Origin: the human T2T-CHM13v2.0 reference genome, Homo sapiens | Assembly: GCF_009914755.1 (NCBI RefSeq) | Contig: NC_060947.1 | Direction: 5' to 3' (one strand) | DNA length: 64,000 bases | Part shown: positions 5,148 through 6,079 of the stretch, one piece after another | Layout of the letters: each line of letters starts with the position of its first letter | How positions within the stretch are numbered: position 1 is the first letter of the stretch | Position numbers and translations under genes: made by a program | Notes under the pieces: model-generated | Seen by the model: the letters and a program-made list of their open reading frames with translations, nothing else | The model's database searches: none | Told to the model about the DNA's origin: nothing

Positions 5148-6079
5148 TGTTGCAGGAAGTCAGAGACCTTAAACAGAAGGACTGGCTGAAACTATGGCAG
5201 AAGAACGTGGATTATGAAGATTTTATAGACATTTATTAGTTCCTCAAATTAATACTTTTGTAATTTCTTATGCCTGTCTTTACTGCAATCTTTAAACATA
5301 AATTGTAAAGATTTCATAGACACTTATCACTTCTTTAATCAATACCTTTGTGATTTCCTATGCCTGTCTTTACTTTAATCTCTTAATCCTGTCAGCCGAG
5401 AAAGATGTATGTCACCTTAGGACCTTGTAATAATTGCATTAACTGCACAAATTGTACAGCATGTGTGTTTGAGCAATATGAAATGTAGGCACCTCAAAAA
5501 AAGAACAGGATAACAGCAATTGTTCAAGGAATACGAGAGATAACCTTAAACTCTGACTGCTGGTGAGCCAGGCAGAACAGAGCCATATTTCTCTTCTTTC
5601 AAAAGCAAATGGGAGAAATATCGCTGAATTCTTTTTCTCAGCATGGAACGTCCTTGAGAAAGAGAATGCGCACCTAGGAGTAAGTCTTTGAACTGGCCCC
5701 CTTGAGGCGTACTTGTCTCTTATGGTCAAGATTGCAGAGGTAAGATAGACTCTAGTCTCCTATAGGCTCTTAGGCTCATTAGGAAGAGGAAATTCTTGCC
5801 TAATAAATTTTAGTCAGACCAGTTGATCTCAAAACCTTGTCTCCTGATAAGATGTTATCAATGACAATAGTGCCTGAAACTTCATTAGCAATTTTAAATT
5901 CGCCTCAGTCCTGTGGTCCTGTGATCTCGCCTTGCCTCCACTTGCCTTGTAATATTCTATTACCCTGTTAAGTACTTGATGTCTGTCACCTACACCTATT
6001 CGCACACTCCTTCCTCTTTTGAAAATCCTTAATAAAAACTTGCTAGTTTTTGTGGCTTGAAAGGCATCACAGATCCTAC
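5148..6079 (+). mobile_element. 5' LTR (MER11-type), lacking its last ~140 bp
   Basis: Aligns to 8552-9482; AATAAA at 6031-6036; ends at agatcctac, directly followed by integrase sequence. Confidence 0.9.

What the first reader, a model, noticed from the sequence alone, without database searches (positions are those of the whole stretch)
5148..6079. 5' LTR of the HML-8 provirus carries a one-sided CC->CT signature: fossil APOBEC3G editing of the PLUS strand
Seen: aligning the two LTRs by eye gives roughly 25-30 positions with C in the 3' LTR and T in the 5' LTR, against about 3 in the reverse direction. Most follow another C and are not CpG (gacccc->gacctt, accatg->actatg, ttcccc->ttcttt, gaccctg->gaccttg, ctccag->ctctag, ctcccag->ctcttag, ttcccg->ttcttg, acccac->acctac, atccct->atcctt). 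Established: LTRs are identical at integration and neutral decay is symmetric and CpG-biased; APOBEC3G deaminates the 3' C of CC/CCC in single-stranded DNA; plus-strand strong-stop DNA, which becomes the 5' LTR, is transiently single-stranded. Inference: this strand was edited before integration and the changes were fixed in the germline. ERV editing screens usually look for G->A only, so this class may be overlooked, and it would inflate LTR-LTR age estimates.
Basis: partly seen in the sequence, partly recalled or inferred. Interest (0 to 1): 0.85.

Follow-up and report, generated by a model that had tools for sequence, protein, structure and literature searches.

The report
Plus-strand APOBEC3G scars in one LTR
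An ancient, partly deleted retrovirus copy in a CASK intron was mutated by the antiviral enzyme APOBEC3G on both DNA strands before it settled in the genome, and its left repeat alone keeps the rarely seen plus-strand damage, which makes the copy look more than twice as old as its repeats really indicate.

Summary
I polarised the LTR differences with 28 other genomic MER11 copies. The 5' LTR (5148-6079) has 26 private C>T changes and the 3' LTR has none. Of the 26, 25 follow a C (Fisher p = 1.5e-13), and 17 of 24 CCC sites are hit.

The signature is missing everywhere else. CC sites changed are 3 of 138 in the internal region, 3 of 37 in the upstream L1 flank and 1 of 19 in the downstream flank.

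Both LTRs share 19 G>A changes, 15 of them in GG. The internal part has 41, 33 of them in GG. The flanks have 0 of 80 GG sites changed.

Editing rates per site class are almost the same on the two strands: CCC 71% against 74%, other CC 20% against 19%.

A matching 6-bp target-site duplication shows a single integration. Best reading (about 0.77): plus-strand strong-stop DNA was deaminated before integration and then copied into the minus strand.

Main rival (about 0.12): editing after integration on resected DNA at the deletion junction at 6079/6080.

I could not test ape orthologues or how general the pattern is. Removing the edits lowers LTR-LTR divergence from 4.9% to about 2.0%.

The parts
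5142..5147 (.). Left copy of the 6-bp target-site duplication GATATT, in the host L1
   Evidence: Of the 10 intact L1 copies fetched, 8 (L061-L068) carry a single GGGATATT followed directly by the downstream flank sequence, usually GGTCTAAAATTC; L069 and L070 have variant motifs (GGGAGATT, GGGATAT).
5148..6079 (+). 5' LTR (MER11C type), keeping the first 932 of about 1069 bp. It carries 26 private C>T changes, 25 of them after C, plus 19 G>A changes shared with the 3' LTR.
   Evidence: The first edit is at 5169 and the last at 6029. CC sites edited: 9 of 13 in the first 200 bp, 0 of 8 in 5348-5647, and 16 of 43 in 5648-6047.
6031..6036 (+). AATAAA, the likely polyadenylation signal. All 26 polarised edits lie upstream of it, so they are mostly in U3.
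   Evidence: Sequence read. The U3/R/U5 assignment is inference.
6079..6080 (+). Deletion junction. LTR position 932 (...CCTAC) is joined to pol (TACTAGAATCCC...). The end of U5, the PBS, gag, pro and most of pol are missing. There is no filler and no overlapping microhomology.
   Evidence: 14 other internal copies were printed, and all read like ...TACTGGAATCCC at this point with single-base variants; the equivalent point in L033 lies at the C-terminal end of the integrase core domain (rve).
6080..8534 (+). Internal remnant, from the end of pol (integrase) through env. It has 41 private G>A changes (33 in GG) but no plus-strand signature: CC>CT at 3 of 138 sites.
   Evidence: Pfam HERV-K_env_2 matches 6841-7020 and GP41 matches 7861-8196. 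A 28-bp deletion between CAATC repeats lies near 6099.
8535..8551 (+). Polypurine tract AAAAAGAAAGGGAGAGA, directly upstream of the 3' LTR. It fixes the orientation of the provirus as + strand.
   Evidence: Sequence read.
8552..9620 (+). Complete 3' LTR (1069 bp). It shares the 19 G>A edits, has 0 private C>T changes and 10 private changes of mixed type.
   Evidence: among the 10 other copies printed, 7 end ...GATA or ...AATA like this one; for the other 3 the local match stops 2 nt short.
9621..9626 (.). Right copy of the target-site duplication GATATT
4148..5141 (+). Upstream L1 flank, used as a control. CC>CT at 3 of 37 sites (1 of 23 in the last 500 bp) and GG>AG at 0 of 51 sites.
   Evidence: polarised with 10 other L1 copies.
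9627..10321 (+). Downstream L1 flank, used as a control. CC>CT at 1 of 19 sites and GG>AG at 0 of 29 sites.

Best explanation
This is the HML-8 provirus listed in print as Xp11.4a. It was made by one reverse-transcription event in a particle or cell loaded with APOBEC3G.

1. The enzyme first deaminated the single-stranded minus-strand DNA along its whole length. This reads as GG>AG on the plus strand and appears in both LTRs, because the edited minus strand was the template for plus-strand strong-stop DNA.
2. The plus-strand strong-stop DNA (U3-R-U5) was then itself deaminated while unpaired, at the 3' C of CC and especially CCC.
3. This strand is the template from which the minus strand of the 5' LTR is completed. 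The uracils were therefore copied as A, and the changes became fixed on both strands of the 5' LTR only.
4. The 3' LTR is copied from the original minus strand and escaped.
5. The DNA was then integrated into an L1 in the germ line, with a 6-bp duplication.

Shown: direction, context, strand, boundaries, co-occurrence with minus-strand editing, and single integration. Inferred: the step at which the strong-stop DNA was single-stranded, and that editing preceded integration.
For: - Direction: 26 private C>T in the 5' LTR against 0 in the 3' LTR, polarised with 28 other copies.
- Context: 25 of 26 follow C (p = 1.5e-13). CCC 17 of 24, other CC 8 of 41, non-CC 1 of 140.
- Same enzyme and dose as the minus-strand editing of this provirus. 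Internal minus strand: CCC 17 of 23, other CC 16 of 83, non-CC 8 of 296. Shared LTR edits: CCC 6 of 10, other CC 9 of 29, non-CC 4 of 136.
- Confinement of CC>CT: 3 of 138 sites in the internal region, 3 of 37 and 1 of 19 in the flanks.
- Sharp left edge: 9 of 13 CC sites edited in the first 200 bp of the LTR, against 1 of 23 in the last 500 bp of host DNA (p = 0.003).
- GG>AG occurs in the provirus only: 33 of 107 sites internally and 15 of 39 in the LTRs, against 0 of 80 in the flanks.
- Matching GATATT duplications around a single L1 site.
- No genomic copy is closer to the 5' LTR than its partner.
- RNA editing cannot explain it, because U3 of both LTRs derives from one RNA copy (established reverse-transcription scheme).
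- All 26 edits lie upstream of AATAAA, so mostly in U3. This speaks against exposure of the non-template strand by LTR-driven transcription.
- Recalled, not seen here: Yu et al. [quoted passage not shown]
Against: - In the usual strand-displacement picture of the second transfer, the strong-stop DNA passes from one duplex to another. The strand left single is the minus strand of the 3' LTR. That picture explains the 3'-LTR-only G>A in mouse Mtvs (PMC12548423).
[quoted passage not shown] Editing of the plus strand as heavy as that of the minus strand is therefore unexpected.
- The cluster also ends at a deletion junction, which allows a cause after integration.
- Timing relative to integration was not tested, because no ape orthologues were at hand.
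- The left boundary rests on few CC sites. In the nearest 100 bp the counts are 5 of 8 against 1 of 2, which is not significant. One CC>CT change lies 98 bp outside the LTR, at 5050.
- Editing is patchy within the LTR: 0 of 8 CC sites in 5348-5647.
Confidence: 0.77

Rival explanations
1. Editing happened after integration, at a double-strand break. A break at about 6079, later repaired with loss of roughly 6 kb, was resected. Left of the break this leaves the plus strand as a 3' single-stranded overhang. A nuclear fraction of APOBEC3G deaminated that overhang in the germ line, in a kataegis-like event.
For: - The C>T cluster abuts a rearrangement junction that has no microhomology overlap.
- The strand is the one expected for a 3' overhang left of a break (inference from resection polarity).
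Against: - Editing does not fall off with distance from the junction. It is highest at the far end, with 9 of 13 CC sites edited 730-930 bp away, and then drops to 1 of 23 just beyond the LTR edge.
- There is no mirror-image G>A cluster right of the junction. GG sites changed are 1 of 7 in the first 250 bp, no higher than the provirus-wide 33 of 107.
- Site-class rates equal those of the minus-strand editing, which must predate integration.
- It needs a second, independent encounter with APOBEC3G at the same 930 bp.
Confidence: 0.12
2. The changes accumulated gradually after integration from a local, strand-biased mutation process, such as transcription- or replication-associated deamination, and not from a single event.
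For: The provirus lies in a transcribed intron of CASK, and an annotated lncRNA overlaps it (hub annotation).
Against: - CASK transcription would expose the minus strand, not the plus strand.
- The neighbouring internal region, the 3' LTR and the L1 flanks share the same transcription and replication context but show no CC>CT excess.
- Only 1 of the 26 changes is at a clear CpG.
- No known spontaneous process prefers the 3' C of CCC (established knowledge).
Confidence: 0.04
3. The 5' LTR is of foreign origin, through recombination or gene conversion with a diverged MER11 copy that carries the T alleles.
For: None found.
Against: - The T alleles are present in 0-4 of the 28 other copies at each site.
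- The nearest relative of the 5' LTR in the genome is its own 3' LTR (40 of 1955 candidates were scored).
- The 5' LTR shares all 19 provirus-specific G>A changes with the 3' LTR.
- The target-site duplications match.
Confidence: 0.02

Closest known systems
APOBEC3G hypermutation of endogenous retroviruses (GG>AG on the plus strand), as in HERV-K(HML-2) and primate gammaretroviruses
   Same: The provirus-wide GG>AG excess, the CCC preference on the deaminated strand, and confinement to the provirus. The context rule is stated in PMC2564838 and PMC1635257 (passages).
   Different: A second layer of editing lies on the opposite strand and is restricted to one LTR. I found no mention of hypermutation for HML-8. 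A term search of the HML-8 census paper (PMC10194239) gave 0 occurrences of 'hypermutation' and of 'G to A'.
3'-LTR-specific G>A editing of mouse Mtv and MLV proviruses (Shaffer et al. 2025, PMC12548423)
   Same: APOBEC3 editing that makes the two LTRs of one provirus unequal before integration. It occurs in betaretrovirus-type elements with long LTRs. The paper draws the same consequence for LTR-based dating (abstract, section 7 and discussion passages read).
   Different: It is the mirror image: the other LTR, the other strand (C>T, not G>A), and human-lineage APOBEC3G (CC) instead of mouse APOBEC3. This provirus shows no 3'-LTR-specific GG>AG. It has 2 private G>A in the 3' LTR, neither in GG.
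Rare plus-strand C>T in the 5' U3 and PBS of vif-deficient HIV-1 made in APOBEC3G-expressing cells (Yu et al. 2004; recalled, paper not held)
   Same: Plus-strand C>T in the 5' LTR, ascribed to transient single-strandedness during the second strand transfer.
   Different: There it was rare and seen in cultured infections. Here it is a germline fossil about 17-20 million years old in which 38% of CC sites are edited, as heavily as the minus strand. The PBS cannot be examined because it is deleted.
Deleted HIV-1 proviruses ascribed to premature second-strand transfer (PMC12657518)
   Same: The architecture matches: a 5' LTR cut upstream of the PBS and joined to internal sequence, with an intact 3' LTR (passages).
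   Different: That paper's passages do not link the class to plus-strand deamination. Here the junction has no shared microhomology, so repair after integration is equally possible.
Kataegis, or germline APOBEC3G-type mutation clusters (PMC4864454)
   Same: A strand-coordinated C>T cluster in CC/CCC context next to a rearrangement junction.
   Different: The cluster respects the LTR edge, shows no decay from the junction and no strand switch across it, and coexists with retroviral minus-strand editing.

Membership tests
APOBEC3G editing footprint | One-directional excess of C>T (or G>A) over the reverse change | tested here: met
   5' LTR: 26 C>T against 2 T>C. Shared by both LTRs: 19 G>A against 2 A>G. 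Internal region: 41 G>A against 3 A>G.
APOBEC3G editing footprint | The target is the 3' C of CC, with CCC preferred, and is not CpG-driven | tested here: met
   25 of 26 follow C. CCC 17 of 24 against other CC 8 of 41. Excluding CpG the p-value is 7e-13. GG>AG: 33 of 107 against 8 of 299.
APOBEC3G editing footprint | Confined to reverse-transcribed DNA and absent from host flanks | tested here: met
   GG>AG at 0 of 80 flank sites. CC>CT at 4 of 56 flank sites against 25 of 65 in the 5' LTR.
Plus-strand strong-stop DNA editing | C>T on the plus strand in the 5' LTR, absent from the 3' LTR and from internal sequence | tested here: met
   26 against 0 for the LTRs. Internal CC>CT at 3 of 138 sites.
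Plus-strand strong-stop DNA editing | Extends through U5 into the PBS copy | not testable with these tools
   The last 137 bp of the 5' LTR and the PBS are deleted.
Plus-strand strong-stop DNA editing | All edits present at integration, that is, shared by all species that have the insertion | not testable with these tools
   Only the window's own genome was searchable. The census paper places the oldest orthologue in orangutan (PMC10194239).
3'-LTR-specific minus-strand editing (Shaffer 2025 type) | Excess of G>A in the enzyme's context, private to the 3' LTR | tested here: not met
   2 private G>A in the 3' LTR, with contexts AA[G]AA and an indel-adjacent site, and none in GG.
Break-associated kataegis | The cluster is adjacent to a rearrangement junction | tested here: met
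   The last edit is at 6029 and the junction at 6079/6080.
Break-associated kataegis | Density is governed by distance from the break, independent of element boundaries, with a strand switch across the junction | tested here: not met
   The highest density is farthest from the junction. Density drops at the LTR edge (9 of 13 against 1 of 23 CC sites). There is no G>A enrichment right of the junction (1 of 7 GG sites).
HERV-K(HML-8) / MER11C provirus | Paired MER11 LTRs, a PPT, betaretrovirus-type pol/env and a 6-bp duplication | tested here: met
   LTR copies are 90-92% alike genome-wide. HERV-K_env_2 and GP41 Pfam hits. rve domain at the junction equivalent in L033. Duplication GATATT. The locus is listed as Xp11.4a, MER11C, in a CASK intron (PMC10194239, table passages). 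The subfamily name comes from that paper and was not tested here.

The most novel reading that the evidence does not exclude
The 6-kb deletion and the plus-strand editing are two traces of one failed step. In an APOBEC3G-loaded complex, the plus-strand strong-stop DNA stopped early at LTR position 932 and had no PBS to guide the second transfer. It stayed unpaired long enough to be deaminated as heavily as the minus strand, and finally paired with a stalled minus strand in the integrase region. The locus would then be a germline snapshot of APOBEC3G disturbing plus-strand transfer. More broadly, part of the C>T clusters that ERV screens discard as negative controls would be real plus-strand editing of 5' LTRs. 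This would be a hidden class that biases LTR dating.
Probability: 0.3. Interest if true: 0.8.

Novelty: new variant of a known kind. Interest (0 to 1): 0.66.

Why it matters
First, it would give a natural, germline-fixed record that APOBEC3G can edit retroviral plus-strand DNA as heavily as minus-strand DNA. Textbook schemes and at least one review treat this as not happening (PMC4488724).

Second, it complements the LTR-asymmetric editing reported in 2025 as new for mouse proviruses (PMC12548423). Together the two patterns would tell which strand is left single in the last steps of reverse transcription.

Third, it has a practical cost. Here 26-27 of the 45 LTR-LTR differences are not clock-like. 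By the formula used in the HML-8 census, the LTR age falls from 12.2 to about 5 million years. The 60 G>A edits also inflate consensus-based ages. The census gives 30.2 My calculated, against 20-17 My by orthology.

Fourth, screens that use C>T clusters as a noise estimate (12,857 against 137,954 sites in PMC4866542) may be subtracting signal.

Tried and rejected
- Recombinant or subfamily origin of the T alleles: rejected.
- Viral RNA editing: rejected on logic, because it would mark both LTRs.
- Exposure by LTR-driven or CASK transcription: rejected on strand and position.
- Filler DNA at the junction: rejected. Bases 6080-6099 are pol sequence. BLAST had started the match at 6095 only because of a 28-bp deletion between CAATC repeats.
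- A second edited provirus to test generality: L032 on contig C1 has its own GG>AG excess, but the 5 kb I fetched upstream (L071) held no LTR.
- Yu et al. 2004 could not be read.
- Four literature searches for plus-strand or 5'-LTR C>T editing in ERVs found no such report. A fifth search returned nothing at all. Subscription journals are mostly not held, so this is not proof of absence.
- Pfam on the first internal ORF (6036-6314) gave nothing. The integrase assignment comes from L033.

Full report
**What is there.**
The window holds a + strand HML-8 provirus of 4473 bp (5148-9620) inserted in an L1.
- Its 3' LTR is complete (8552-9620, 1069 bp). A polypurine tract (8535-8551) lies directly before it.
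- Its 5' LTR keeps only the first 932 bp (5148-6079).
- The 5' LTR is joined, without filler, to the C-terminal end of the integrase core of pol. The env remnant follows.
- The 6-bp duplication GATATT flanks both ends. Of the 10 intact L1 copies fetched, 8 show the motif once with the two flanks contiguous; the other 2 have variant motifs. So both LTRs come from one integration event.
- The locus matches 'Xp11.4a' of the published HML-8 census. There it is typed MER11C, placed in a CASK intron, with its oldest orthologue in orangutan (20-17 My) and a calculated age of 30.2 My (PMC10194239, table and text passages).

**The observation.**
- A pairwise alignment gives 31 C(3')/T(5') columns against 3 of the reverse.
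- I fetched the 28 best other genomic copies out of 1914 candidates, of which 40 were scored and 30 loci returned including the two LTRs themselves. All 30 were aligned.
- There are 29 T/C columns in that alignment. In 27 of them C is the state in at least 22 of the 28 other copies. In the other 2, T is the common state.
- I counted only columns where at least 80% of the other copies agree and both LTRs have a base. The 5' LTR then has 31 private changes, 26 of them C>T. The 3' LTR has 10 private changes, none C>T.
- 25 of the 26 follow a C. CC sites hit are 25 of 65, against 1 of 140 other C sites (p = 1.5e-13). Only one is at a clear CpG.
- CCC sites are hit 17 of 24 times and other CC sites 8 of 41 times.
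- There are five runs of 2-3 consecutive changes.
- None of the 28 control copies has more than 8 private C>T, or more than 4 after C.

- Against the same 28 copies, the two LTRs share 27 changes. Of these, 19 are G>A, and 15 of the 19 lie in GG (15 of 39 GG sites against 4 of 136 other G sites, p = 3e-8).
- I compared the internal region with 29 other HERVK11 internal copies (316 candidates, 40 scored, 30 loci including self). It has 71 private changes. Of these, 41 are G>A and 33 of the 41 lie in GG (33 of 107 against 8 of 299, p = 2e-14). The G>A changes are spread evenly along its 2.4 kb.
- The provirus is therefore a classical APOBEC3G hypermutant.
- Host flanks, polarised with 10 L1 copies, show 0 of 51 and 0 of 29 GG sites changed.

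**Where the plus-strand signature stops.**
- CC>CT occurs at 3 of 138 sites in the internal region.
- It occurs at 3 of 37 sites in the 1000 bp of L1 upstream and 1 of 19 sites in the 695 bp downstream.
- Inside the LTR the rate is highest at the extreme 5' end, with 9 of 13 CC sites in the first 200 bp. In the last 500 bp of host DNA it is 1 of 23 (p = 0.003).
- With only the nearest 100 bp on each side the contrast is not significant (5 of 8 against 1 of 2). One CC>CT change lies at 5050, outside the LTR.

**Same enzyme, same dose.**
Editing rates by site class are nearly identical on the two strands.

| Strand and region | CCC | other CC | non-CC |
|---|---|---|---|
| Plus strand, 5' LTR | 17 of 24 | 8 of 41 | 1 of 140 |
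| Minus strand, internal | 17 of 23 | 16 of 83 | 8 of 296 |
| Minus strand, shared LTR edits | 6 of 10 | 9 of 29 | 4 of 136 |

**Mechanism.**
- In the established scheme of reverse transcription, plus-strand strong-stop DNA is copied from the minus strand. It therefore inherits the earlier minus-strand edits, which end up in both LTRs.
- It then serves as the template for the minus strand of the 5' LTR.
- The 3' LTR is completed from the original minus strand.
- Deamination of the strong-stop DNA itself is therefore the one step that yields C>T on the plus strand, fixed on both strands, in the 5' LTR alone.
- RNA editing, or inheritance from an edited parent, would mark both LTRs.
- All 26 edits lie upstream of AATAAA (6031-6036), mostly in U3. 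This speaks against exposure by sense transcription. CASK transcription would expose the other strand.
- What is not shown is when the strong-stop DNA was unpaired. The displacement model used for the mouse 3'-LTR-specific G>A leaves the minus strand single instead (PMC12548423). [quoted passage not shown]
- I recall, but could not read, that Yu et al. 2004 saw rare C>T changes in the 5' U3 and PBS of vif-deficient HIV-1.

**The rival I take seriously.**
- The cluster ends at the deletion junction.
- Resection at a break there would leave exactly the plus strand single on the left side.
- Germline CC/CCC clusters and recruitment of APOBEC3G to breaks are in print (PMC4864454).
- Against this rival:
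  - Density does not decay from the junction.
  - It collapses at the LTR edge.
  - No mirror G>A cluster lies right of the junction (1 of 7 GG sites).
  - Site-class rates equal those of the editing that must predate integration.
  - It requires a second, independent hit by the same enzyme.
- The junction can also be read the other way. Deleted HIV-1 proviruses with the 5' LTR cut upstream of the PBS are ascribed to premature second-strand transfer (PMC12657518). That would tie the deletion and the plus-strand editing to one aberrant step. The junction shows no overlapping microhomology, so I cannot decide between these readings.

**Other rivals.**
- A foreign or subfamily origin of the 5' LTR is refuted. 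Its best genomic match is its partner at 94%. The other 38 scored hits are 91% or lower (40 of 1955 candidates scored).
- It also shares all 19 provirus-specific G>A changes with the 3' LTR.

**Consequences.**
- There are 45 LTR-LTR differences over 923 aligned columns (4.88%). Of these, 26-27 are edits.
- Without them divergence is about 2.0%. By T = D/0.2%/2 the age falls from 12.2 to about 5 My. One line of that output, labelled 'minus 29', overcounts, because only 27 of the 29 T/C columns are derived T.
- Both values lie below the 17-20 My given by orthology, so LTR dating is poor here in any case.
- The census's higher calculated age (30.2 My) includes divergence from a consensus. The 60 G>A and 26 C>T edits must inflate that figure. 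This is my inference, and I did not open the paper's supplements.

**Novelty.**
- APOBEC3G footprints in human ERVs are well known.
- LTR-asymmetric editing was reported as new in 2025 for mouse 3' LTRs. That paper also made the dating caveat (PMC12548423).
- I found no report of the 5'-LTR, plus-strand counterpart in an endogenous retrovirus in four searches, and a fifth search returned nothing.
- A major screen used C>T clusters as its negative control (PMC4866542).
- I rate this a new variant of a known kind.
- How general it is remains untested. 0 of the 28 other MER11 copies show either signature. I do not know which of those are 5' LTRs.

Noticed in passing
L032 (G000:C1:159824730-159827187) compared with window 6095-8551: Another HERVK11 internal copy has its own G>A excess (28 changes, 16 in GG). 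It carries A at 12 of this provirus's 41 internal G>A sites. This could be recurrent APOBEC3G hot spots or a shared edited ancestor. Its 3' LTR is only 88% like the window's.
   Followed up: partly
window 8458-9620: The annotated lncRNA LOC124905180 has an exon that starts at 8458, inside the env remnant, and runs through the 3' LTR. The provirus therefore seems to supply an exon boundary.
   Followed up: no
window about 6099: A 28-bp deletion between two CAATC direct repeats lies 20 bp right of the LTR/pol junction. It could be a template slip by reverse transcriptase or later replication slippage.
   Followed up: partly
window 5348-5647: The middle of the 5' LTR escaped plus-strand editing: 0 of 8 CC sites pass the 80% rule, and one likely edit at 5425 misses it. 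Both ends are heavily edited. The cause is unknown. Local secondary structure or partial pairing of the strong-stop DNA is possible.
   Followed up: no
window 9604-9612: The tail of the 3' LTR reads GGGGCAAGTCC, where 8 of the 10 other copies printed read GGGGCAGGTCC (the other two read GGACCAGGTCC and AGGGCAGGTTC). This is one more GG>AG change, in the part of the LTR that has no 5' counterpart.
   Followed up: no
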